This document shows, piece after piece, positions 3,766 to 15,789 of a stretch of DNA of 62,525 bases. A model generated the notes under the pieces. That model made no database searches and had not been told where the DNA came from. It saw nothing but the letters and a program-made list of their open reading frames with translations. Numbering within the stretch: the stretch's first letter is position 1; each line of letters begins with the position of its first letter. This DNA comes from Acidobacteriota bacterium (GTDB taxonomy: Bacteria > Acidobacteriota > Polarisedimenticolia > Gp22-AA2), in assembly GCA_018606725.1 (NCBI GenBank), contig JAGYID010000029.1, positions 1 through 62,525 of the forward strand, in the 5' to 3' direction. A program made the translations under genes and the position numbers.

Positions 3766-4632
3766 ATGCAGATCGAGTTGCCACGCCGGCAGCGCGGGCG
3801 GGCCGCCGCGGCGGCCGGCCCCAATTTGATGAAACTGCTGGCACGCCGGGTCGGGCGGGCGATCCAGGACTACGGCCTGATCGCGGACGGCGACCGTATC
3901 CTGTGCGGCATGTCGGGCGGCAAGGATTCCTACGCCATGCTGCACGTGCTCGATCACCTGCGCCGCCGCGCGCCGGTGCGCTTCGAGCTGGTCGCCGTGA
4001 CCGTCGATCAGGGCTATCGGGGCTTCCAGGTCGAGGCGCTGGAAGCGTACTTCAAGGAGAAGGGCTACGAGCACCACATCGAGCGGACCAACATCGCCGA
4101 GGTCATCGACGACACCATGCCGCTCGGCGACACGCATTGCTCGATGTGCGCCCGCCTGCGGCGCGGCGTGTTGTACCGGCTCGCCGGCCAGCTCCGCTGC
4201 AACAAGATCGCCCTCGGCCACCACGCCGACGATTTACTGGAGACGCTGTTGATGAGCCAGTTCTTCAACGGCGAGATCTGCTCCATGCCGCCTGTCCTGA
4301 AGGCGCGCGATGGCCGCAACACCGTCATCCGACCGCTGTGCTACGTCTGGGAGGACGAGATCAGGAAGTTCACGACCCAGGAGGGTTTCCCGGTGATCTG
4401 TTGCGCCTGCCCGGCCTGCGGCGATCACTCGTTGCAGCGGACCCGGATGAAGACGCTCCTCGCCAAGCTGGAGTCCGAGCACCCGGGCATCAAGAATTCC
4501 CTGCTGCGGTCCCTCTCCAACATCCGGCTCAACCACCTGCTCGACCCGCGTTGGCTCGAGGGCGGTGCGCCGGCGCCAGCCGGGGCGCCGATTCGGTCCG
4601 CGGACGAGCGATCGCACACACCGGAAGGATAA
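3766..4632 (+). CDS. ttcA: tRNA 2-thiocytidine(32) synthetase TtcA
   Basis: PP-loop SGGKDS, CSMCARLRRG, KIALGHHADD, VIRPL and a C-terminal CCACPAC Fe-S motif. TATAAT at 3703-3708 suggests the start is ATG 3766 rather than 3670. Confidence 0.93.
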   Translation: MQIELPRRQRGRAAAAAGPNLMKLLARRVGRAIQDYGLIADGDRILCGMSGGKDSYAMLHVLDHLRRRAPVRFELVAVTVDQGYRGFQVEALEAYFKEKGYEHHIERTNIAEVIDDTMPLGDTHCSMCARLRRGVLYRLAGQLRCNKIALGHHADDLLETLLMSQFFNGEICSMPPVLKARDGRNTVIRPLCYVWEDEIRKFTTQEGFPVICCACPACGDHSLQRTRMKTLLAKLESEHPGIKNSLLRSLSNIRLNHLLDPRWLEGGAPAPAGAPIRSADERSHTPEG

Positions 4633-4668
4633 AAAAAGGGGGCGGCGGAGAACCCGTTCCGCCGCCCC
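4631..4668 (-). terminator. Intrinsic terminator with its U-tract on the minus strand, possibly bidirectional
   Basis: Perfect 11-bp stem GGGGCGGCGGA/TCCGCCGCCCC next to an A7 run on + (U7 on -). Confidence 0.8.
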
Positions 4669-4800
4669 GACACGGGCGGGCGAACCCGCTCGTGGGAGGG
4701 AGCTTGAAGCGGCCGCCGTTCCGGGTCACGCCCCGGCTCGCCGCAAACCAGAACGCCACGTCCCGGGACGGCGGCCGATGTCTTGTTGCGTCGGCGCGGT
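4631..4800 (-). ncRNA. Candidate structured small RNA of about 170 nt, family unknown
   Basis: Three stacked hairpins (4711-4776, 4671-4694, 4639-4668), an unpaired CUCCCUCC on -, promoter-like TTGACA/TTGACG boxes at 4825-4845 on -, and no credible ORF. Confidence 0.4.
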
Positions 4801-4967
4801 CTTGCTATTGCGACATGAACCTACCGTCAAATTTGTAATTGTCAACATGAAAAACATTCAGGTCATTTCTTCGACCCGGCCCTTTGATTCCTCCCCAGGC
4901 ATGAGAAGCGTGGATGGTGTGCATTTGCGGCCGGGAGACTTGTTATAAGAGCAATACAGGACGGAAC

Positions 4968-8321: not shown

Positions 8322-10169
8322 GTGAGCGTCCATCTGCGCCGCGCGGATATCCGCAACATCGCCATCATCGCCCACGTCGATCACGGTAAGACGACGCTGG
8401 TCGACCGCCTGTTGCAGCAGACGGGCACCTTCCGGGCCAACGAGCGGCTGGTCGAGCGGGTCATGGACAGCAACGACCTGGAGCGCGAGCGCGGCATCAC
8501 CATCCTGTCGAAGAACACCTCCATCCACTACAACGGCGTGAAGATCAACATTGTCGACACCCCCGGCCACGCCGACTTCGGCGGCGAGGTGGAGCGCATC
8601 CTCGGCATGGTCGACGGCGTGCTGCTGCTGGTGGACGCCGCCGAGGGGCCCCTGCCGCAGACCCGGTTCGTGTTGAAGAAGTCGCTCGAGCTCGGGCTGA
8701 GGCCGATCGTCGTGATCAACAAGATCGACCGCTCCGACGCCCGGCCGCACCAGGTCCTCGACGAGGTCTTCCAGCTGATGCTCAACCTCGGGGCGGCGGA
8801 CGAGCAGCTCGACTTCCCGCATCTGTACGCCTCGGCCAAGCTGGGCTACGCGCGGCGCGAATTGGAGCACACCGACACCGACGTCCGGCCGCTGCTCGAC
8901 ACCATCCTGAAGGAAGTGCCGCACCCGCCGGGCGACGCCGCCGCCCCGCTGCAGCTCCAGATGACCACGCTCGACTACAACGATTACGTCGGACGCATCG
9001 CCATCGGACGGGTTTTCCGCGGCACCATCCGGCAGAACGCGCCGATCGCACTGTTGAAGCTGGACGGCACGGCGCAGGCCTGGAAGGTGACGCGCCTGGA
9101 GACCTTCGAGGGGCTGAAGCGGGCGCCGGTCGATGAGGCGGCCGCCGGCGAGATCGTCGCCGTCGCCGGCATCCCGGAGATCCAGATCGGCGAAACAATC
9201 ACCGACCCGAACGCCCAGGACGCCCTGCCGCCGATCCGGGTGGACGAGCCGACGATCTCGATGGACTTCGTGGTCAACGACTCGCCGTTCGCCGGTCAGG
9301 TTGGCCGGTTCGTCACCTCCCGCCATCTGCGCGAGCGGCTGCAGAAGGAGGCGCGCGCCAACGTGGCGCTGCGCGTCGAGGAGACCGACAGCCCCGATAC
9401 CTTCAAGGTCTCGGGACGCGGCGAGCTGCACCTGGCGATCCTCGCCGAGACGATGCGCCGCGAGGGGTACGAGTTCCAGCTGGCGCGGCCCCAGGTCATC
9501 TTCCGCAAGGACGCGCAGGGACGGACGCTCGAGCCGATCGAGTACCTGGTGCTGGACCTCGAGGAGGCGTACCGCGGCCGGGTGATGGAGATGCTCGGCT
9601 CCCGGCGGGCCGAAATGGCCGACATGATCGGCGCCGGGACCGGGCGGATCCGGTTGGAATTCACCGTGCCGGCGCGGGGGCTGCTCGGCTTCCGGCGCGA
9701 GTTCCTCACCGAGACCCGCGGCACCGGGATCATGTCGCACGTCTTCCATGAGTACGGGTCGTACCGCGGTGACATCGCGGCCCGCAATCGAGGCGCGCTC
9801 GTCGTCAAGGAGCCGGGCGTCACCGTGACCTTCGCCCTGCACAACCTCGAGGATCGCGGCACGCTGTTCTGCGGTCCGGGGCTGCCGGTGTACGAGGGGA
9901 TGATCGTCGGCGAGCACTCGCGCGATACCGACCTGGTCGTCAACCCCTGCAAGAAGAAGCACCTGACCAACATGCGCGCCTCGACCTCCGACGACACCAT
10001 CCGCCTGACGCCGGCGCGCGTCATGTCGCTCGAGGACTGCATCGAGTTCCTCGCCGACGACGAACTGGTCGAGGTCACTCCCAAGACCACGCGGCTGCGC
10101 AAGCGGCTGTTGTCGGCCCACGGTCGCAAGCGCGATGAGAAGGCGCGCGCCGAGGTGACCGCCCCTTGA
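8322..10169 (+). CDS. typA: Translational GTPase TypA/BipA
   Basis: [42 protein letters not shown] and the BipA C-terminal KHLTNMRA...DELVEVTP. Confidence 0.98.
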
Positions 10170-11071
10170 CCAGGGGCCGCGGGACGAGCGCCGGCCCCGG
10201 ACTCCGCATCGACCTGCGCGCTGCATCGTCCGGCCATGGGGGCGCCGCCGCCGGCCGGCCGGCGTGTTCGGCCCCGCTCCGGTTCGCGCACCGGGGCGCG
10301 CGCACTCTGGCGCCGGAAAACACTCTGGCGGCCTTCGAAGCGGCCCACCGGCTCGGCATCGACGCGATCGAGTTCGACGTGCGGCTGTCGGCCGACGGAG
10401 TGGCGGTGGTGATCCATGACGAGACGGTCGATCGGACGACCGACGGCGATGGTCGGGTCGGGGATCTGGCGCTCGAGCAGTTGAAACGCCTGGATGCCGG
10501 CTGCTGGTTCGCACCGGAGTTCCGCGGCGAGCCGATTCCCACGCTCGAGGAAACGCTCGCCTGGGCGCGCGGGCGCTGCGGCGTCAACATCGAGCTGAAG
10601 GAGGCCCGGGGGCGCGGCGCCGCCACCGGGTCGCCCGCGACCCGGTGCGCCTCCCTGGCGCAGGCAGTGGCGCGCGCCATCCGCCGCACCGCCTTCCGTG
10701 ACTTCCTGGTCGTGTCGTCGTTCGCGACCCCCGCCCTGGCGGCGGCCCGGACCTCCATGCCCGCGGCGCGTCTCGGATGGCTCGCATCGCGGTCGCTGCG
10801 CGGCCTGGCGTCCTTGCACCACCGCCTCCGCCTGTACTCGCTGCACCCGCACGTGCGGCTCGCGTCACCCCGGCGGGTCGTCCTCGGACGGCGACTGGGG
10901 CTGCGGGTGTTTTTCTGGACCGCCAACGATGTCCGGCTGATCCGCCGCCTCGTCGGACTCGGCTGCGACGGCGTGATGACCGACGATCCGGCCCTGTTCC
11001 GGCGTGCCGGGCTGACCGGTCCGACGATGCAACGCGGCTCAGAGGCCGTCCGGACGCGGGTTTCCGATTGA
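10166..11071 (+). CDS. Glycerophosphodiester phosphodiesterase family protein
   Basis: AHRGA...PENTLAAF, EFDV, HDETVDRTT, IPTLEE, NIELK, WTAN and GVMTDDP. Starts by TTGA overlap with the typA stop. Confidence 0.92.
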   Translation: MTRGRGTSAGPGLRIDLRAASSGHGGAAAGRPACSAPLRFAHRGARTLAPENTLAAFEAAHRLGIDAIEFDVRLSADGVAVVIHDETVDRTTDGDGRVGDLALEQLKRLDAGCWFAPEFRGEPIPTLEETLAWARGRCGVNIELKEARGRGAATGSPATRCASLAQAVARAIRRTAFRDFLVVSSFATPALAAARTSMPAARLGWLASRSLRGLASLHHRLRLYSLHPHVRLASPRRVVLGRRLGLRVFFWTANDVRLIRRLVGLGCDGVMTDDPALFRRAGLTGPTMQRGSEAVRTRVSD

Positions 11072-11096
11072 CAGGGACCGGCCGTCACCGTATAGT
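11068..11096 (+). promoter_or_regulatory. Strong sigma70 promoter for the leader-sat transcript
   Basis: TTGACA (11068-11073)-17 nt-TATAGT (11091-11096). Confidence 0.85.
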
Positions 11097-11133
11097 CACG
11101 GGCGCACTCGATACTTGGAGGGCGCGGGGTTTC

Positions 11134-11226
11134 ATGAGCGGCAACGGCGGCACGTCCCATCGCTTCACCGGCAGGCTGGTTCGCTCCCGCGCTCACCTCG
11201 GTTGTTGTTGTCCTATCTGTCCATAG
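11134..11226 (+). CDS. Cys-rich attenuator leader peptide MSGNGGTSHRFTGRLVRSRAHLGCCCPICP
   Basis: ATG downstream of GGAGG (11117-11121). Ends TGT TGT TGT CCT ATC TGT CCA TAG and overlaps hairpin segment 1. Confidence 0.78.
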   Translation: MSGNGGTSHRFTGRLVRSRAHLGCCCPICP

Positions 11227-11320
11227 CATCACGGTCGTCGACCGGGAGATAGGACAAGTCAGGGAACGTCGCTCAATAGCCCGAACCCTTTCCGGTCTCC
11301 CGGAAGGGGTTTTTTGTTTC
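11208..11320 (+). terminator. Attenuator: 1:2 hairpin, 2:3 antiterminator and 3:4 intrinsic terminator upstream of sat
   Basis: 1:2 is TTGTCCTATCT/AGATAGGACAA (11208-18/11247-57). 2:3 is CCGGGAGA/TCTCCCGG (11242-49/11296-303). 3:4 is AACCCTTTCCGG-TCTC-CCGGAAGGGGTT followed by TTTTGTTT. Confidence 0.82.
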
Positions 11321-11343
11321 AGGGCGCGGAGGCGCGAGGAGAG

Positions 11344-13086
11344 ATGATGTCGGAGCAGAAGCAGATCGTGGAGGCAGGTCCCGGGGCGGTCCTGCGCGAC
11401 GGCGTGTCGCGGCAGGCGGCGCGGAGCGGTCCGACGCCCGTCGGCGGCAAACTGGTCGACCGGGTGCTGAACGGCGCGGCGCGCGAGGCGGCGCGGTCGC
11501 TCGCCGGCAAGCTCCCGAAGCTCACCCTGACGCTCGATCAGATCGTCACGCTGGAAATGATCGCGACCGGGGTGCTCAGCCCGCTCGAGGGTTTCCCCGG
11601 GCGCAAGGACTACCAGTCGATCCTCGACCGCGGCCGGCTTGCCGACGGCACGCCGTGGACCCTGCCGCCGACGCTGGCGCCGGCGGACGAGGAGAGCCGC
11701 CGCGTCATCGACCGGGTGCGCGAAGGGGACGCCGTGGCCCTGGCCGACGAGAAGGGCCAAGCGGTGGCGATCCTGCATCTTCAGGAGAAATATTCCTTCG
11801 ACAAGACCGAGCGCGCCCAGAAGCTGTTCGGCACGACCGAGCGGAAACATCCCGGCGTCGACGCCATCCACCGCCGCCTCGGCGACCTCGCCCTGGCCGG
11901 GCCGATCGACCTCATCGAGAAGACCCACTGGGGGCCGTTCGAGAGATACCGTCTCGAGCCGAAGGACGCCTGGCGTCTGTTTCACGAGGAGCGCGGCTGG
12001 AACACGGTGATCGCGTTCCAGACCGCCAACCCGCTGCACCGCGGCCACGAGCATCTGCAGAAGTGCGCCCTGGAGATCTTCGACGGGCTGTTCATCCACC
12101 CGGTCGTCGAGACGACCCGGCGCGCCTATTTCCGCAACGAGTTCCGCATCAAGGCCTACGAAGTCGCGCTGCGCGAGTACTTCCCCGCTGACCGCGTCGC
12201 CATGGCGCCGCTGCGGATCACCATGCAGTACGCCGGGCCGCGCGAGGCGATCCTGCACGCCCTCATTCGCCGCAACTTCGGCTGCACGCACTTCATCGTC
12301 GGCCGCGACCATGCCGGCTTCGGGAGCTACTACGACCCGTACGCCTCGCAGAAGATCTTCTCCGACTACGACCGCACCGAGCTCGGCATCGAGCCGGTCT
12401 TCTTCCGCGAGTCGTATTACTGCACGCGCTGCGGCAGCGTGGCTTCCGAGAAGACCTGCCCGCACGGCCGCGAGTATCACATCACCATGAGCGGCACCGG
12501 CGTGCAGGACATTCTGCGTTACGGCTATCTGCCCCCCAAGGAGGTCCTGCGTCCGGAGGTCGGACAGGTGATCCTGCAGGGGATCCAGCCGAAGGGCGTC
12601 GGGCCGGACGGGAAGGCGATCCGCCCGGTCGGCGACACCATCAAGGGCCTGTTCCCCTTCTACCTGACGCACGCCCGCCTCGGCGGTCCGAAGCGCGAGG
12701 TGCCCCTCGATCCGGCGACGCTGACGAAGCGGGACCTCGAGGCGGCCCTGCATGACGCGCGGGACAACGCATCGCGGGTCTACGACCGCGTCTACGAGAC
12801 TTTCACCTCCCTCTTCGATCTCGATCGGGCCCTCGAGGTGTCTCTCCTTCAGCAGGCGCGTCTGAAAGCGATCGCCATCCAGGAGGAGCTGGTCGAATCC
12901 CTGGAGCAGAAAGTGGCGGTGGCACCCGAGACGGTCGAGGACGCCTACATGTACCAGGATCGGGCGGAGGCGGAGCGCGAGCTCCAGGTCGCGCGCCGGA
13001 TTCTGGAGGAGCTGCGGCGCGGCGAGGGAGCCGATTTCAAGTCGCGCGTCTGGAATCAACGCCCGTACGAAGACTACTCGATCTGA
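11344..13086 (+). CDS. sat: Sulfate adenylyltransferase (Sat-type ATP sulfurylase) with a C-terminal extension of about 165 aa
   Basis: SPLEGF, WTLP, FQTANPLHRGH (HxxH), YAGPREAILHALIRRNFGCTHFIVGRDHAG and the Zn motif CTRC...CPH. SD GAGGAG. Confidence 0.9.
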   Translation: MMSEQKQIVEAGPGAVLRDGVSRQAARSGPTPVGGKLVDRVLNGAAREAARSLAGKLPKLTLTLDQIVTLEMIATGVLSPLEGFPGRKDYQSILDRGRLADGTPWTLPPTLAPADEESRRVIDRVREGDAVALADEKGQAVAILHLQEKYSFDKTERAQKLFGTTERKHPGVDAIHRRLGDLALAGPIDLIEKTHWGPFERYRLEPKDAWRLFHEERGWNTVIAFQTANPLHRGHEHLQKCALEIFDGLFIHPVVETTRRAYFRNEFRIKAYEVALREYFPADRVAMAPLRITMQYAGPREAILHALIRRNFGCTHFIVGRDHAGFGSYYDPYASQKIFSDYDRTELGIEPVFFRESYYCTRCGSVASEKTCPHGREYHITMSGTGVQDILRYGYLPPKEVLRPEVGQVILQGIQPKGVGPDGKAIRPVGDTIKGLFPFYLTHARLGGPKREVPLDPATLTKRDLEAALHDARDNASRVYDRVYETFTSLFDLDRALEVSLLQQARLKAIAIQEELVESLEQKVAVAPETVEDAYMYQDRAEAERELQVARRILEELRRGEGADFKSRVWNQRPYEDYSI

Positions 13087-13179
13087 TCACCGGGGCCTTT
13101 CCGCTCGTCTTGACAAAGGCATATCCTTGTGATGTATTGACCGCGGCTTCCAGACAACGCAACCAAAGGGGGTGAGACC

Positions 13180-13503
13180 GTGGCCAAGAAACGAGCGAAG
13201 CGGAAAGCGTCTCGCCGCAAGGGCGCAAGCCGCAAGGCTTCCGCCCGGAAGGCACCCAGAAAGAAGGCGGCCCGCAAGGGCGCGAAAAGAGCCCGACCGG
13301 CGAAGAAGTCCGCGCGGCGCAAGGGCAGCGCCCGCAAGGCCGCCCCGCGCAAGGCGGCGGCCAGGAAGGCGGCGCCGCGCCCCAGCGCTCCCGCTCCAAC
13401 GCCGGCGGTGACCCCGGTGGTCACTCCGACGACCCCGTCCTCCTACACGCCGACGTACGGCAGCGGTTTCGGGTCCGACATCGGCAAGAACGAAGAGGAA
13501 TAG
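13180..13503 (+). CDS. Histone H1-like Lys/Arg/Ala-rich protein with a Thr-Pro-rich tail
   Basis: Repeated ARK/RKAA units, SD GGGGGTGA, its own promoter-like TTGACA at 13110, and a downstream terminator. Confidence 0.75.
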   Translation: MAKKRAKRKASRRKGASRKASARKAPRKKAARKGAKRARPAKKSARRKGSARKAAPRKAAARKAAPRPSAPAPTPAVTPVVTPTTPSSYTPTYGSGFGSDIGKNEEE

Positions 13504-13521
13504 ACCCAACCTCGCATCCCA

Positions 13522-13559
13522 CGCCCCGGCACCGATGACGGCGCCGGGGCGTTTTTTTG
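13522..13559 (+). terminator. Intrinsic terminator
   Basis: Hairpin CGCCCCGGC...GCCGGGGCG followed by T7. Confidence 0.85.
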
Positions 13560-13642
13560 CCCGGGTGGACCGTTGACTCCCGCCGGGAGCGGCCTATATT
13601 GGGTTATGGTTTCTGCACGATACGCAACGTGTGCGAGGGACG

Positions 13643-14173
13643 ATGCCCGAAGCAGCGACCGCACCATCCGGCAATCCCACCGGCGCCCCCCAGTCGGATT
13701 CGACTTTCCGTGGCGGCATGTCCGCCCTGGAAAAGCGCTGTTACAAGGAAGCGATCGCCTTGTTCCAGCAGGCGATCGATCTGGAGCGTCAGGAGGGGGC
13801 CAAGAATCCGAAAATGAAATTCGTTTCCTGGCTCGGCCTGGCTCTGACCCTGTCGCAGGGGCGGTCGGAGGAGGGATTGAAGCTGTGCGAGCAGGCGGTC
13901 AAGCGCGAGTTCTTCGACCCGGATCTGTACTGCAACCTCGGAATCGTCTACCTGCGCAGCCGCCAGAAAGCCCGCGCCTTCGAGGCGTTCCAGAAGGGGC
14001 TGAATCTCAAGCCGGGGCACCGCCGGATTCTCGAGGAGCTGGAGAAATACGACCAGCGCAGCTACCCGGTGTTCGCTTTCCTCCCGCGCCAACACCTGAT
14101 CAACCGCCTGGCGGGCCGCCTGCGCCACCGCCTGCGTCACCTGTTCGGGAAAATCTCTCCCAACGAAGCCTGA
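13643..14173 (+). CDS. Small TPR protein
   Basis: TPR-like helices (YKEAIALFQQAI, YCNLGIVYL...AFEAFQKGL). SD GAGGGA. Promoter TTGACT-16-TATATT at 13573-13600. Confidence 0.85.
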   Translation: MPEAATAPSGNPTGAPQSDSTFRGGMSALEKRCYKEAIALFQQAIDLERQEGAKNPKMKFVSWLGLALTLSQGRSEEGLKLCEQAVKREFFDPDLYCNLGIVYLRSRQKARAFEAFQKGLNLKPGHRRILEELEKYDQRSYPVFAFLPRQHLINRLAGRLRHRLRHLFGKISPNEA

Positions 14174-15789
14174 GCCGTTCGAGGGCCGCCTCCGGCCCCG
14201 GCCGGGCCTACCGCCCGGCGGCCGGAACTTGCGCAGCCCTCGCATTCGTCCTGTCACAGGCGCCCGTCCTCGCCGACCGGGCGGCGGCAGCGGCGCCGGC
14301 CTCCGAGCCGCCCGGGCAGGAGGCGCCGGAGCGCGATGGGCCGCGGCGGGAGGCGCAACGCCTCGACGCCGACGCTTACGTCCGGCGCGGTTTCGAATAC
14401 CTGGCGCGGCCGCGCCCGGAGGACCAGGATGAGGCGGCGCGGCTGTTCCGGAAAGCGATCGATCTCGAGCCGGATCGGAGCGAAGCGCTCCGGGGTCTCG
14501 CCCGGGTCGACACCTACCTGTACACGCTCGGCCTCGATACCAGACGGGAGCGCCTCCAGGACGCCCTCGATGCGGCCGGGCACGCCGTCGAGCGGGCGCC
14601 GCAGGACGCCCCGGCGCGCGCCGCTCTGGCCCTGGCGCTGGCCGCCGCCGACCGGCTGACGCCGGCCCTCGAGGAGGCCAGGCGGGCGACGGCGATCGAG
14701 GCGGGCTCGGCCGAAGCCCAGGCATCCACGTGTGTCGTGCTGCGGCTGCGGGGCGATTTGGATGGAGCCCTGGCGGCCTGCCGGCGGGCCGTGACGGCGG
14801 CTCCCCGCGACCCGCGCCTGTTGACCGCCTTCGGCGACGCGTTGCGTGACAAGGGTCTGTACGAGGACGCCATGGAGATGTACGGGCAGGCGGTCGACCT
14901 GGACCACGAGGCGATCGCGCCGCAGCTCGGGGCGGCGGTGGCGCTGCACAAGGCAGGCCGGTACCAGTCGGCGGGCGGCATGTTCAATCTGCTCCTCGAG
15001 AAATGGGACTACGCCCAGGACCGCGTCCGCCTCGGCGCGGCGGCCCTGTTGCTCAGCATGCAGCGCTTCGACGACGCCCTGGCGATGTACGAGAAGGTGC
15101 CGGTGCCCGAGGGCGGCTCGCTGCCTGTCCTGGTGACGCTGTACGGCAAGGCCTACTGCCTGCAGCGGCTCGGACGCAGCCCCGAGGCGGAGTACTTCCT
15201 CAGCGGTCTCATCGAGCGGGTGCCACGGGCCTATGACGGTCCGGCGCGGGGTCGCGATGTGCTGTTCATGGCCTACGGCGACCTGGTCGGTTATTTCCGG
15301 GAGCGCGACAAGGTGCACAAGGTCGAGACGCTGCTGCGAGAGGCGGCCGCCCGTCCGCTGGCGCCGACCCGCTTCGCCCGCGACCTGGCCGGGCGTCTCG
15401 ACGCCGCGGGGGAAGCCGGCAAGGCCGCGGCGATTCTCGAGACCGCCGTCCTCGGCGCCGACCCGGCGGAGGATCCGATCGAGCTGTCCGAGAGCGCGCT
15501 GGCGATGGTCCGCGTGCGGACCGCCGCCGGCAACCGGCGTCTGCCGGCCGACAGCGCCGCGGCGCGGGCCCTGCAGCAGGCCGTGGACCGCATCGCGCCC
15601 TCCCCGATCGGCATCGCGCAGTACCGCCTGGCCCGGGCTCTTGCGCTCGCCGGCTGGAACGACGAGGCGATCGCCTGCCTGGCACGGGCCCGGCAGGGCG
15701 GCTACCTGCCCGCCGACCAGGTTGCCGACGAGAAGGACTTCGACCGTCTCCGCGACCTGCCCGCCTTCAAGAACCTGCTCGCCGGCTGA
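14170..15789 (+). CDS. Exported multi-TPR protein
   Basis: Signal-like AALAFVLSQAPVLA, many TPR repeats and a C-terminal DFDRLRDLPAF. The CTG at 14170 overlapping the previous stop is the only plausible start. Confidence 0.75.
   Translation: MSRSRAASGPGRAYRPAAGTCAALAFVLSQAPVLADRAAAAAPASEPPGQEAPERDGPRREAQRLDADAYVRRGFEYLARPRPEDQDEAARLFRKAIDLEPDRSEALRGLARVDTYLYTLGLDTRRERLQDALDAAGHAVERAPQDAPARAALALALAAADRLTPALEEARRATAIEAGSAEAQASTCVVLRLRGDLDGALAACRRAVTAAPRDPRLLTAFGDALRDKGLYEDAMEMYGQAVDLDHEAIAPQLGAAVALHKAGRYQSAGGMFNLLLEKWDYAQDRVRLGAAALLLSMQRFDDALAMYEKVPVPEGGSLPVLVTLYGKAYCLQRLGRSPEAEYFLSGLIERVPRAYDGPARGRDVLFMAYGDLVGYFRERDKVHKVETLLREAAARPLAPTRFARDLAGRLDAAGEAGKAAAILETAVLGADPAEDPIELSESALAMVRVRTAAGNRRLPADSAAARALQQAVDRIAPSPIGIAQYRLARALALAGWNDEAIACLARARQGGYLPADQVADEKDFDRLRDLPAFKNLLAG

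What the first reader, a model, noticed from the sequence alone, without database searches (positions are those of the whole stretch)
11068..11346. Cysteine-sensing leader-peptide attenuator controlling sulfate adenylyltransferase
Seen in sequence: a promoter TTGACA-17-TATAGT; a 30-codon ORF (11134-11226) ending GGT TGT TGT TGT CCT ATC TGT CCA TAG (GCCCPICP*); a perfect 11-bp stem pairing the Cys/Pro/Ile codons (11208-18) with 11247-57; an alternative 8-bp pairing of 11242-49 with 11296-303, which would disrupt the GC hairpin plus U-tract (11284-11319) lying just before the sat SD. All four Cys codons are UGU, whereas the sat CDS uses UGC. Established: this is the 1:2/2:3/3:4 geometry of trp/his-type attenuators, and Sat is the entry step of sulfate assimilation toward cysteine. 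Cys-run leader ORFs are known in Actinobacteria. Inference: when Cys-tRNA is scarce the ribosome stalls on segment 1, 2:3 forms and sat is transcribed; otherwise transcription terminates. I know of no classical intrinsic-terminator Cys attenuator on sat in this kind of organism.
Basis: partly seen in the sequence, partly recalled or inferred. Interest (0 to 1): 0.9.

Follow-up and report, generated by a model that had tools for sequence, protein, structure and literature searches.

The report
Cysteine-sensing leader before sulfate-activating gene
A short upstream reading frame packed with cysteine codons, followed by a transcription stop signal, very likely lets this soil/sediment bacterium switch on its sulfate-activating enzyme only when cysteine runs low; it is a familiar kind of switch found here in an unfamiliar group of bacteria.

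Summary

The element is conserved. I found 30 instances:
- 14 of 29 genomes of the same Acidobacteria family (14 distinct leaders).
- 16 leaders in metagenome contigs (4 repeat others; 26 distinct in all).

All sit before the same 580-aa Sat. All but one carry an in-frame run of 2-5 Cys codons, although uORF length and sequence vary. The exception reads Cys-Arg-Cys.

A genome-wide scan found one other such element in this genome. It has a six-Cys uORF plus terminator before cysH-sulfite reductase, and is conserved before 16 of 16 close cysH orthologs. So both transcription units of sulfate reduction carry Cys-codon leaders.

This is strong comparative support for ribosome-mediated, Cys-tRNA-sensing transcription attenuation.

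How well each pairing is supported:
- The terminator and the 1:2 helix show compensatory changes.
- The antiterminator is not resolved. An alternative pairing with the terminator's 5' arm fits all but shows no covariation.

No expression data were obtained.

The kind is known: predicted Cys uORF attenuators before cysS, and mycobacterial polycysteine uORFs. This is a new member in a new phylum.

The parts
11068..11096 (+). Sigma-70-type promoter: TTGACA (11068-73), 17-nt spacer, TATAGT (11091-96); the CCGTATAGT stretch is conserved
   Evidence: 11 of 12 consensus positions. The same -35/-10 with CCGTATAGT is present in all 14 genome leaders. The transcription start is not mapped.
11117..11122 (+). 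Shine-Dalgarno-like GGAGGG, 11 nt before the uORF ATG
   Evidence: Read. Purine-rich stretches lie at similar distances in most orthologous leaders. The spacing is long and function is inferred.
11134..11226 (+). Leader ORF, 30 codons plus TAG: MSGNGGTSHRFTGRLVRSRAHLGCCCPICP*
   Evidence: An ATG at 58-68 nt from the -35 hexamer (40 nt in L002), in frame with a Cys run, occurs in 14 of 14 genome leaders. ATG-to-run distances are 27-96 nt, 11 distinct values, all multiples of 3.
11203..11220 (+). Regulatory codons: UGU UGU UGU (11203-11), CCU AUC, UGU (11218-20); proposed ribosome stalling site
   Evidence: TGT is 12%, CCT 4.9% and CCA 4% of their codon families in this genome. In the Cys runs of the 14 leaders there are 33 TGT and 7 TGC.
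11208..11218 (+). Segment 1: 5' strand of the anti-antiterminator helix, overlapping the Cys-Pro-Ile codons
   Evidence: Exact complement of 11247-57. The duplex with the box is -19.9 kcal/mol. The equivalent duplex is -19.3 to -28.8 kcal/mol in 9 of 9 leaders of this architecture. CCUAUC/GAUAGG is replaced by CCUGUC/GACAGG in L009, L144 and L143.
11232..11244 (+). Small hairpin CGGUC-GUC-GACCG that ties up the 5' end of the box in the off state
   Evidence: MFE and centroid structures. Larger inserted hairpins take this place in L006, L008 and L009.
11242..11257 (+). Conserved box (segment 2), CCGGGAGAUAGGACAA. The 3' half pairs with segment 1. The 5' half is complementary both to the terminator 5' arm and to the loop plus 3' arm. 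It is the presumed antiterminator strand
   Evidence: Alignments A1, A2 and A4 show invariant or nearly invariant columns. In 9 of 14 genome leaders the uORF stop codon lies in or just after this box.
11262..11282 (+). Spacer hairpin (GGG 11262-64 with CCC 11280-82) between box and terminator
   Evidence: Fold. Orthologs have a hairpin here with different stem sequences (GGCA/UGCC, GGCGC/GCGCC, GGGAU/AUCCC), read. Not formally tested.
11283..11319 (+). Intrinsic terminator: 5' arm 11283-95, loop UCUC 11296-99, 3' arm 11300-12, U-tract 11310-19
   Evidence: 13 bp, 7 G-C pairs. Hairpin energy is -19.6 kcal/mol. Across 26 distinct leaders 97.1% of cells pair, 4 pairs have compensatory changes, and 0-1 of 500 shuffles reach this.
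11336..11343 (+). Shine-Dalgarno of sat (GAGGAGAG)
   Evidence: Read. It lies 17 nt past the U-tract.
11344..13086 (+). sat, sulfate adenylyltransferase, 580 aa (or 579 from ATG 11347). Residues about 420-580 have no assigned domain
   Evidence: Pfam PUA_2 and ATP-sulfurylase. NCBIfam NF003166 and TIGR00339 above cut-off. PDB relatives cover residues 30-417 only. The C-terminal 160 aa have no Pfam match below E = 0.08. Strain variants in DNA runs change 11345 T to C, which removes the first ATG.

Best explanation
This is a ribosome-mediated transcription attenuator that senses charged Cys-tRNA and gates sat, the first step of assimilatory sulfate reduction.

Transcription starts a few bases after TATAGT. 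A ribosome then translates the 30-codon leader.

When cysteine is plentiful:
- The ribosome runs through UGU UGU UGU CCU AUC UGU, terminates at UAG 11224-26 and leaves.
- Segment 1 (11208-18) pairs with the 3' half of the conserved box (11247-57), and a small hairpin ties up the rest of the box.
- The terminator 5' arm stays free, the 13-bp hairpin 11283-11312 forms, and RNA polymerase stops in the U-tract.

When Cys-tRNA is scarce:
- The ribosome stalls on the rare UGU codons and covers segment 1.
- The freed box pairs with the CCGG-containing top of the terminator. This is either the 5' arm (11242-48 with 11289-95) or the loop plus 3' arm (11242-49 with 11296-303).
- The terminator fails to form and sat is transcribed.

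In most related leaders the uORF instead reads on and stops at the UAG inside the box. There a non-stalled ribosome would mask the box directly.

What is shown: the parts, their conservation, the reading frame, and compensatory changes in 1:2 and 3:4.

What is inferred: stalling, which antiterminator pairing is used, the timing, and any response to cysteine.

A second leader of the same logic controls cysH-sir, so the two together would form a small Cys-tRNA-sensing regulon.
For: 1. All parts are present at the stated coordinates.

2. Distribution. A covariance model of box, spacer and terminator, which leaves out the Cys codons, hits strongly (E <= 2e-11) once per genome in 14 of 29 family genomes. 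Every hit lies before the 78-84% identical Sat. There was no strong hit in the other 90 genomes of the class.

3. Cys run. All 14 genome leaders have an in-frame run of 2-4 Cys codons.

4. An independent sample. A metagenome scan was anchored only on the promoter and TTCATG.
   - It gave 54 stretches, of which 16 are homologous leaders.
   - 15 of the 16 have 2-5 consecutive Cys; one reads C-R-C.
   - 14 of the 16 are followed by sat; the other 2 contigs are too short to tell.
   - None of the 38 unrelated matches has sat.

5. Reading frame. It is kept across indels: 11 different ATG-to-run distances, all multiples of 3. TGT/TGC vary synonymously within the runs.

6. Rare codons. There are 33 TGT and 7 TGC in the runs, against 12% TGT genome-wide.

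7. Terminator. 97.1% of cells pair and 4 pairs have compensatory changes; 0-1 of 500 shuffles reach this.

8. Segment 1:box duplex. It is -19.3 to -28.8 kcal/mol in 9 of 9 leaders with an early stop, with the compensatory CCUAUC/GAUAGG to CCUGUC/GACAGG change.

9. Regulon. Among 210 terminator-like sites in the genome, only the sat and cysH leaders have 3 or more consecutive Cys codons upstream.

10. The cysH leader (...MPCCCCCCRPTRPAGGSGMGVR*) precedes an APS/PAPS reductase and a sulfite reductase.
   - It is conserved before 16 of 16 cysH orthologs of 67% identity or more that have upstream sequence. Their longest Cys runs are 3-7 codons.
   - In all 16, a box (GGCAGCGGG) that mimics the terminator 3' arm pairs with the 5' arm (8 of 9 pairs invariant).

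11. No Rfam family matches either leader.
Against: 1. No experimental signal was obtained. The one RNA run that holds part of the region covers only 11900-12042 inside sat, and it is held as contigs.

2. At equilibrium the terminator forms with probability above 0.96 whether or not the stalled or terminating ribosome footprint is masked. This holds in 13 of 14 leaders. The switch must therefore be kinetic, which I could not model.

3. The antiterminator is not established.
   - Box with 5' arm: 93.5% pairable but with no double change, and not above shuffles.
   - Box with loop and 3' arm: 86.9% pairable, 7 double-change cells against 3.3 expected (42 of 500), and only 6 of 10 pairs possible in the three GAGA-loop leaders.
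   - Shuffling the sequence upstream of the 5' arm gives segment energies as low as the native ones (z from -1.8 to +1.3).

4. In the window a ribosome sitting at the stop codon would also free the box (5' arm paired 0.83). Termination would then need prompt ribosome release.

5. The Shine-Dalgarno spacing of 11 nt is long.

6. UGUUGUC also takes part in pairing with the box, so the preference for TGT could be partly structural.

7. The related genomes are kin, so the counts are not independent events.
Confidence: 0.8

Rival explanations
1. The Cys-codon uORF is translated and senses Cys-tRNA, but the output is not intrinsic termination. Stalling could instead change sat translation by remodelling the mRNA, as in the mycobacterial polycysteine sORFs. 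Or it could control Rho-dependent termination. The hairpin with its U-tract would then play a constitutive or accessory role.
For: - In mycobacteria, polycysteine sORFs act by freeing a sequestered ribosome-binding site (10.1101/834739, abstract and Discussion read).
- Actinobacterial Cys leaders lack terminators, and Rho was proposed for them (PMC1262725, passages).
- Here the terminator wins at equilibrium in every modelled state.
- No antiterminator is proven.
Against: - A strong hairpin (12-13 bp; -18.5 to -22.4 kcal/mol for the 14 genome leaders) with a run of 4 to 7 U is conserved, with compensatory changes, in 26 of 26 distinct sat leaders. The cysH leaders have one too in 16 of 16.
- The sat Shine-Dalgarno lies 17 nt beyond the U-tract and is not part of the conserved structure.
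- The boxes in both leaders mimic a terminator arm. That is the signature of termination control.
Confidence: 0.08
2. The leader is a ligand- or protein-binding RNA switch: a riboswitch-like element, or the target of an RNA-binding regulator of sulfur metabolism. The conserved box would be the recognition site, and the open reading frame would be incidental.
For: - The box CCGGGAGAUAGGRCGGC is more conserved than base pairing alone requires.
- GGUUUCAUG...AAYGG around the start is conserved at the nucleotide level.
- TGT-rich sequence is also what lower-GC non-coding DNA would give.
Against: - There is no Rfam match.
- Between ATG and Cys run the sequence and length vary freely, yet the frame is kept in 14 of 14 genome leaders (11 distinct lengths).
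- In the 16 metagenome leaders the ORF from the anchored ATG reaches the Cys codons in frame in all, and 15 have a consecutive run.
- Cys codons vary synonymously.
- A second leader with a different box and terminator but the same Cys-run logic sits before the next pathway genes.
Confidence: 0.06
3. The small ORF encodes a functional cysteine-rich micropeptide, for example a metal- or redox-active peptide or a precursor of a modified peptide. It would be co-expressed with sat, and the hairpin would simply end its transcript.
For: A C-terminal motif (CCCPIC, CCCCPIC, CCCPV) recurs in several leaders.
Against: - Only the Cys run is shared.
- The N-terminal two thirds vary in length (22-43 aa) and sequence.
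- The C-terminus differs completely between the two architectures (CCCPICP* against CCCRTGGRADSGG*).
- The peptide tail coincides with RNA pairing elements.
- The promoter-uORF-terminator unit always sits directly before sat in the same orientation, with no second promoter detected.
Confidence: 0.04

Closest known systems
Classical leader-peptide transcription attenuators of amino-acid operons (E. coli/Salmonella trp, his, leu, thr, pheA, ilv); named from established knowledge
   Same: - A short translated leader carries tandem codons for the pathway's end product near its end.
- There are overlapping alternative helices (1:2, 2:3, 3:4).
- An intrinsic terminator sits just before the first structural gene.
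- Ribosome position selects the fold.
- In the common form of this leader the terminating ribosome would cover segment 2, as in trp.
   Different: - The amino acid sensed is cysteine.
- The controlled genes are for sulfate reduction (sat, cysH-sir), not the last steps of cysteine synthesis. No such leader lies before cysK-cysE or cysS.
- The host is an Acidobacteria lineage.
- The antiterminator is ambiguous, because a palindromic CCGG lets the box pair with either arm of the terminator.
- Two architectures coexist among close relatives.
uORFC-8-2 motif upstream of cysS in Rhodobacterales (PMC8632094; passages read)
   Same: - It is a predicted ribosome-mediated attenuator with a conserved AUG.
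- It has tandem Cys codons lying in the first stem.
- It ends in a U-run consistent with an intrinsic terminator.
   Different: - It precedes cysteinyl-tRNA synthetase in alpha-proteobacteria.
- It has two Cys codons, and UGC dominates.
- Here the genes are sat and cysH-sir, runs are 2-7 codons and mostly UGU, and the sequences are unrelated as far as the Rfam scan can tell.
- I could not compare directly with that motif's alignment, because supplements are closed.
Polycysteine leaderless sORF attenuators of mycobacteria (10.1101/834739; abstract and Discussion read)
   Same: - Consecutive Cys codons in an upstream sORF sense cysteine through ribosome pausing.
- Several cysteine or sulfur loci are controlled in parallel (the authors' 'ribulon').
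- Two consecutive Cys codons can suffice.
   Different: - Those sORFs are leaderless, and the studied case acts on translation by unmasking a ribosome-binding site.
- Here the predicted transcript has a leader of about 30 nt with a Shine-Dalgarno-like element.
- Here the conserved output element is an intrinsic terminator.
Cys-codon leader peptides before cys/cbs operons in Actinobacteria (PMC1262725; passages read)
   Same: Short ORFs with runs of Cys codons near the stop codon lie upstream of cysteine-metabolism operons.
   Different: The authors found no conserved terminator hairpins and suggested Rho-dependent termination. Here a covarying intrinsic terminator is present in every instance.

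Membership tests
Leader-peptide (ribosome-mediated) transcription attenuator | Short translated ORF in the 5' leader with its own start codon and ribosome-binding site | tested here: met
   ATG 11134 follows GGAGGG at 11117-22. An ATG at a nearly fixed distance from the promoter, with the frame kept, occurs in 14 of 14 genome leaders and in the 16 metagenome leaders. Translation itself is not measured.
Leader-peptide (ribosome-mediated) transcription attenuator | Clustered codons for the amino acid whose synthesis the downstream genes serve, near the end of the leader ORF | tested here: met
   Cys at codons 24-26 and 29 of 30. Runs of 2-5 Cys occur in 29 of 30 instances, and the other reads C-R-C. 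Sat is the entry step of sulfate assimilation.
Leader-peptide (ribosome-mediated) transcription attenuator | Intrinsic terminator (G+C-rich hairpin plus U-tract) between leader ORF and first structural gene | tested here: met
   Across 26 distinct leaders 97.1% of cells pair and 4 pairs are compensatory.
Leader-peptide (ribosome-mediated) transcription attenuator | Helix that overlaps the regulatory codons and sequesters the antiterminator strand (1:2) | tested here: met
   11208-18 pairs with 11247-57 (11 bp). The duplex is -19.3 to -28.8 kcal/mol in 9 of 9 leaders with an early stop, with a compensatory change. In the other architecture it is only a 7-bp, G-U-rich helix, and the stop codon lies in the box instead.
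Leader-peptide (ribosome-mediated) transcription attenuator | Antiterminator (2:3) mutually exclusive with the terminator and favoured when the ribosome stalls | tested here: inconclusive
   There are two candidate pairings. Box with 5' arm is 93.5% pairable with no covariation. Box with loop and 3' arm is 86.9% pairable with weak covariation, and fails in 3 GAGA-loop leaders. Truncated-transcript folds show the box paired to the 5' arm in the stalled state, but shuffles do as well. The equilibrium full-length fold always gives the terminator.
Leader-peptide (ribosome-mediated) transcription attenuator | Readthrough rises when the cognate aminoacyl-tRNA is scarce | not testable with these tools
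   The only RNA data found are contigs covering 11900-12042.
Mycobacterial polycysteine leaderless sORF attenuators | sORF starts at the transcript's 5' end (leaderless) | tested here: not met
   The ATG lies 37 nt after the -10 hexamer, so the predicted leader is about 30 nt. The transcription start is predicted, not mapped.
Mycobacterial polycysteine leaderless sORF attenuators | [quoted passage not shown] | tested here: inconclusive
   The sat Shine-Dalgarno (11336-43) lies outside the conserved structure. The MFE shows only a local hairpin near it. Not examined across orthologs.
Known RNA families (riboswitches, T-box, described leaders) in Rfam 15 | Match to a curated covariance model | tested here: not met
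   For 10500-12000 the best overlapping hits had E of about 4 and bit scores far below gathering. There was no hit at E <= 1 for the cysH leader.

The most novel reading that the evidence does not exclude
One family of Acidobacteria runs its whole assimilatory sulfate-reduction pathway (Sat; APS/PAPS reductase with sulfite reductase) on a two-member regulon of Cys-tRNA-sensing leader-peptide transcription attenuators.

The sat leader arose from the older, more widespread cysH leader. The two share TGTTGTCG...ACCGGCGG and a CCCR...GG...GG* peptide tail.

The sat leader has since evolved between two ways of silencing its antiterminator. In one, the terminating ribosome parks on a UAG inside the antiterminator strand. 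In the other, an early UAG is combined with a new RNA helix made from the Cys-Pro-Ile codons. The invariable UAG stop, read only by RF1, would act as a timing device.
Probability: 0.3. Interest if true: 0.65.

Novelty: new member of a known kind. Interest (0 to 1): 0.5.

Why it matters
Leader-peptide attenuation is a textbook mechanism, but it is documented mainly in Proteobacteria, Actinobacteria and a few Firmicutes. [quoted passage not shown]

If confirmed, these would be leader-peptide attenuators in an uncultured Acidobacteria lineage. They would be cysteine-specific ones that act by intrinsic termination on sulfate reduction genes. That would add to the few known ways bacteria regulate sulfur assimilation without a CysB-type protein.

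The set of 26 sat leaders in two architectures, plus the cysH leaders, is also a natural experiment. It shows how attenuators are rewired while their function is kept.

For annotation, it shows that the small Cys-rich ORFs before sat and cysH in these genomes should be treated as regulatory leaders rather than as hypothetical proteins.

Tried and rejected
- **Rfam scans** of both leaders at permissive thresholds found nothing.

- **Box motif in the own genome.** The pattern search gave one exact hit, the finding itself. The one-mismatch hits were no more frequent than the reversed-pattern control: 24 against 13, none with the other parts. The covariance model R1 also found no second copy.

- **Weak R1 hits** in relatives are only terminator look-alikes, without Cys uORFs: L062, L065, L067.

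- **Equilibrium folding with ribosome footprints masked** showed no switch; the terminator formed in 13 of 14. I rejected it as a test because attenuation is kinetic.

- **Folding full 5' transcripts cut before the 3' arm** was noisy, because of long-range pairings with the 5' leader. I replaced it with folding only the RNA 3' of the ribosome.

- **Shuffle control for the antiterminator** gave no specific stability. I therefore make no energy-based claim for it.

- **Public reads.** Of 19 runs listed, I laid one RNA run and three DNA runs.
  - The RNA contig covers only 11900-12042. It says nothing about the leader or its 3' end.
  - The DNA contigs show no differences in 11123-11312.

- **Genome-wide search for further Cys-run sORFs.** The 94 CCC-containing short frames are almost all out-of-frame CTGCTG repeats inside genes. 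Five were inspected, and each is overlapped by long open frames of 200 aa or more, so I took them to lie inside genes.

- **cysK-cysE, cysS and two cysK paralogs** have no Cys uORF upstream.

- **More distant R2 hits** precede other genes. L113 and L114 have only one Cys in the leader frame, so I did not count them as Cys attenuators.

- **Rejected ideas:** a riboswitch, a Cys-rich micropeptide, and chance (see the rival explanations).

- **Tools and files not available.**
Table S2 and Fig. S4 of 10.1101/834739 and the motif alignments of PMC8632094 might list further Cys uORFs that I could not see.

- **Literature.** Five full-text searches found no paper describing a Cys-codon leader before sat or cysH, or in Acidobacteria. 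This holds only for the held library.

- **The unpublished genome G013** appears in the tallies.
  - Without it, R2 hits are 20 of 118 class genomes and 18 of 28 family genomes.

Full report
**Observation.**

- The promoter is TTGACA (11068-73), a 17-nt spacer, and TATAGT (11091-96). It matches 11 of 12 consensus positions. It is one of only two promoter-like sites in 9000-14000, against 0.2 expected.
- GGAGGG lies at 11117-22.
- The ORF runs from ATG 11134 to TAG 11224-26 and encodes MSGNGGTSHRFTGRLVRSRAHLGCCCPICP*.
- 11208-18 is the exact complement of 11247-57. This helix appears in the MFE and centroid folds.
- 11242-49 is the exact complement of 11296-303.
- The terminator is a 13-bp hairpin, 11283-95 with 11300-12, followed by a T-run.
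- sat starts at 11344 or 11347. It has PUA_2 and ATP-sulfurylase domains and is named sulfate adenylyltransferase by NCBIfam above cut-off.
- All four leader Cys codons are TGT. sat has 0 TGT and 5 TGC. TGT is 12% of Cys codons in 1124 long ORFs of the genome (GC 69.4%).

The whole leader is not unusually stable (z = -1.3). No Rfam family matches it.

**Organism and distribution.**

The closest named public record is an Acidobacteria MAG (subgroup 22 by its title).

The 580-aa Sat has 78-84% identical orthologs in relatives. Every ortholog with upstream sequence has the same promoter, uORF, box and terminator.

I built a covariance model of box, spacer and terminator only, leaving the Cys codons out (R1).
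- It finds one strong hit per genome in 14 of 29 genomes of the family, spread over six genera.
- Every hit lies before this Sat.
- It finds nothing comparable in the other 90 genomes of the class, and no second copy in the own genome.

Other sat types (35-63% identical) lack the leader.

I then made an independent sample by scanning metagenome contigs with a pattern of the promoter plus TTCATG only.
- It returned 54 stretches. Sixteen are homologous leaders and 38 are unrelated.
- Fourteen of the 16 are followed by a sat ortholog. Two contigs end too early to tell.
- None of the 38 unrelated stretches has sat.

**Is the uORF read?**

In the 14 genome leaders the ATG lies 58-68 nt from the start of the -35 hexamer (40 nt in L002).
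- The peptides are 22-43 aa long and unrelated in their first two thirds.
- The ATG is always in frame with a run of 2-4 Cys codons.
- The ATG-to-run distance takes 11 different values from 27 to 96 nt, all multiples of 3.

In the 16 metagenome leaders, 15 have 2-5 consecutive Cys in the ORF from the anchored ATG. One reads Cys-Arg-Cys.

Within the runs there are 33 TGT and 7 TGC. TGT and TGC interchange among orthologs while Cys is kept.

This pattern is what selection on a translated Cys run predicts. It is hard to explain by RNA structure alone, although UGUUGUC also takes part in pairing.

**A second leader.**

I scanned the whole genome for terminator-like hairpins with an upstream ORF containing Cys runs.
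- There are 210 such sites. Only two have 3 or more consecutive Cys codons upstream.
- One is the finding itself. The other lies on contig C50 (L076, minus strand, about 5800 to 5500).
- It has a TTGACA...TATATC promoter-like sequence (read by eye) and a uORF ending ...MEAMPCCCCCCRPTRPAGGSGMGVR* (TGC then TGT x5).
- A terminator AAACCCACTGCC-ATC-GGCGGTGGGTTT with a U-tract follows.
- Downstream come an APS/PAPS reductase and a sulfite reductase.

This cysH leader is conserved.
- It precedes 16 of 16 cysH orthologs of 67% identity or more that have upstream sequence. Their longest Cys runs are 3-7 codons.
- It is absent before five distant cysH genes of 45-51% identity.
- One locus was cut at a contig end, and two loci of an unpublished genome were left out.

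In all 16, a box GGCAGCGGG nearly identical to the terminator 3' arm pairs with the 5' arm.
- Eight of nine pairs are invariant, with a conserved C-A mismatch.
- 88% of cells pair, against 26-60% when the partner is slid.
- The uORF stop lies 12-24 nt beyond that box. A ribosome that reads through would therefore cover it.

Model R2 finds this leader in 21 of 119 class genomes. These are 19 of 29 in the family and 2 of 5 in the sister family. Without the unpublished genome the count is 20 of 118.

No Cys uORF lies before cysK-cysE, cysS or two cysK paralogs.

Both transcription units of sulfate reduction, and only they, thus carry Cys-codon leaders.

**Structure of the sat leader.**

Across 26 distinct box-to-terminator sequences (alignment A4), the three helices compare as follows.

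| Helix | Cells pairable | Double (compensatory) changes | Shuffles reaching it |
|---|---|---|---|
| Terminator (3:4) | 97.1% | 4 pairs, 5 cells | 0-1 of 500 |
| Box with terminator 5' arm (window 11242-48 with 11289-95, plus GG/CC) | 93.5% (main helix 96.7%) | none | not above shuffles |

Two architectures exist.

*Type A* comprises the window, L006, L008, L009, L010 and four metagenome leaders.
- The uORF stops 12-72 nt before the box.
- The Cys-Pro-Ile/Val codons form a duplex of 10-15 bp with the box, at -19.3 to -28.8 kcal/mol.
- CCUAUC/GAUAGG (5 leaders) is exchanged for CCUGUC/GACAGG (L009, L144, L143).

*Type B* comprises 9 of the 14 genome leaders and most of the metagenome ones.
- The uORF reads on and ends at the UAG of the GAUAGG box, or just after it in L003.
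- The 1:2 helix shrinks to 7 G-U-rich pairs.

For the antiterminator there are two candidates.
- Three leaders have a GAGA loop instead of UCUC and keep only 6 of its 10 pairs.
- The pairing with the 5' arm has the geometry of a classical antiterminator, because it can form before the 3' arm exists.

Folding only the RNA downstream of a stalled ribosome, cut before the 3' arm, puts the box on the 5' arm.
- The segment energy is -15.4 to -23.5 kcal/mol, against -18.5 to -22.4 for the terminator.
- Masking the box with a ribosome at the type-B stop frees the 5' arm in 9 of 9 type-B leaders.

These folds are not specific. Shuffling the upstream part gives similar energies. At equilibrium the full-length leader always forms the terminator.

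The antiterminator is therefore plausible but unresolved, and the switch must be kinetic.

**Mechanism, with its status.**

Shown:
- the parts and their order;
- conservation of the frame and the Cys run;
- compensatory support for helices 1:2 and 3:4;
- exclusive association with sulfate-reduction genes.

Inferred from the established logic of trp/his-type attenuators:
- With ample Cys-tRNA the ribosome clears the Cys codons. In type B it then sits on the box at UAG. In type A it leaves, so that segment 1 captures the box. Either way the terminator forms.
- With scarce Cys-tRNA the ribosome stalls on the rare UGU codons, the box is free, it engages the CCGG top of the terminator, and sat is transcribed.

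One weak point in the window is that a ribosome still at the stop codon would also free the box.

**Comparison with what is known.**

| System | What was read | Main features |
|---|---|---|
| Cys leaders before cys/cbs operons in Actinobacteria (PMC1262725) | passages, | Cys-codon leader peptides; no terminators found |
| Mycobacterial polycysteine leaderless sORFs (10.1101/834739) | abstract and Discussion, | experimentally shown; act on translation |
| uORFC-8-2 motif before cysS in Rhodobacterales (PMC8632094) | passages, | predicted; tandem Cys codons plus an intrinsic terminator |

Five literature searches found nothing on sat, cysH or Acidobacteria. Supplements were closed.

The element is thus a new member of a known kind in a new phylum and on new target genes.

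**Expression data.**

The only RNA run holding any part of the stretch covers 11900-12042, as a contig. It says nothing about the leader.

**Verdict.**

The 2:3 helix remains open.
- The novelty is moderate.

Noticed in passing
Own genome contig C50, locus L076:5500-5800 (minus strand); outside the window: A second Cys attenuator candidate. It has a promoter-like sequence, a uORF with six consecutive Cys codons, and a terminator. It precedes an APS/PAPS reductase (L076:4760-5494) and a sulfite reductase (L076:2954-4735). It is conserved before 16 of 16 close cysH orthologs.
   Followed up: yes
window 11224-11226 and the uORF stops of L002-L010, L027, L050, L055, L061: All 14 sat-leader uORFs end in TAG, although TAG is only 21% of stops of long ORFs in this genome. 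The five early-stop leaders and L003 use non-homologous TAGs. A role for RF1-specific termination timing is possible but untested.
   Followed up: partly
Terminator loop, window 11296-11299; L002, L010, L055: The loop is UCUC in most leaders but its exact complement GAGA in three leaders from two genera. It looks like an inversion of the loop between the palindromic CCGG arms. In those leaders the 5' arm plus loop becomes a copy of the box.
   Followed up: partly
window 11125-11150 and the same place in orthologs: The nucleotides around the uORF start are conserved (GGTTTCATG, then AAY GG at codons 4-5), although the peptide is otherwise variable. I found no pairing partner or other reason.
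   Followed up: no
window 12604-13086 (Sat residues about 420-580): The Sat that carries this leader has a C-terminal extension of about 160 aa. It has no Pfam domain (best E = 0.09) and no solved relative. It is not an APS-kinase domain. The leader occurs only with this form of Sat.
   Followed up: partly
window 11345: DNA contigs of two other runs read C instead of T here. That removes the first ATG of sat and leaves ATG 11347, which has the better spacing to the Shine-Dalgarno. The true start is probably 11347. The other strain differences (11088, 11105, 11107) lie outside the uORF, box and terminator.
   Followed up: no
L115 (G029:C140) and L114 (G027:C38), sister family: A leader related to the cysH one (R2 hits, E about 1e-8) precedes a protein of about 200 aa with an N-terminal hydrophobic stretch (a signal peptide by eye), not cysH. 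L115 keeps a W-C-C-C-W-C uORF, while L114 has a single Cys. The leader may have moved to another gene and partly decayed.
   Followed up: partly
Own genome contig C129, about 4550-4810 and 14500-14700 (plus strand): Two similar stretches are full of GGTTCGAAC-type palindromic repeats and end in strong terminator-like hairpins. They look like a repeated element. Their CC* frames are probably incidental.
   Followed up: no
L065 (G011:C114:about 900-1130) and L067 (G005:C173): Structured leaders with terminators lie before genes whose products begin ...ARYSRQ, which I recall as ThiF/MoeB-like. L065 looks like a SAM-type riboswitch by eye. Neither the gene family nor the RNA family was tested.
   Followed up: no
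window 13180-13503 (+): A 107-aa ORF between sat and the TPR-protein gene has a weak, below-cut-off match to histone H1-like HC2 (29 bits against a cut-off of 40). A terminator-like site lies at 13540-53, and a promoter-like site at 13573-13600.
   Followed up: no
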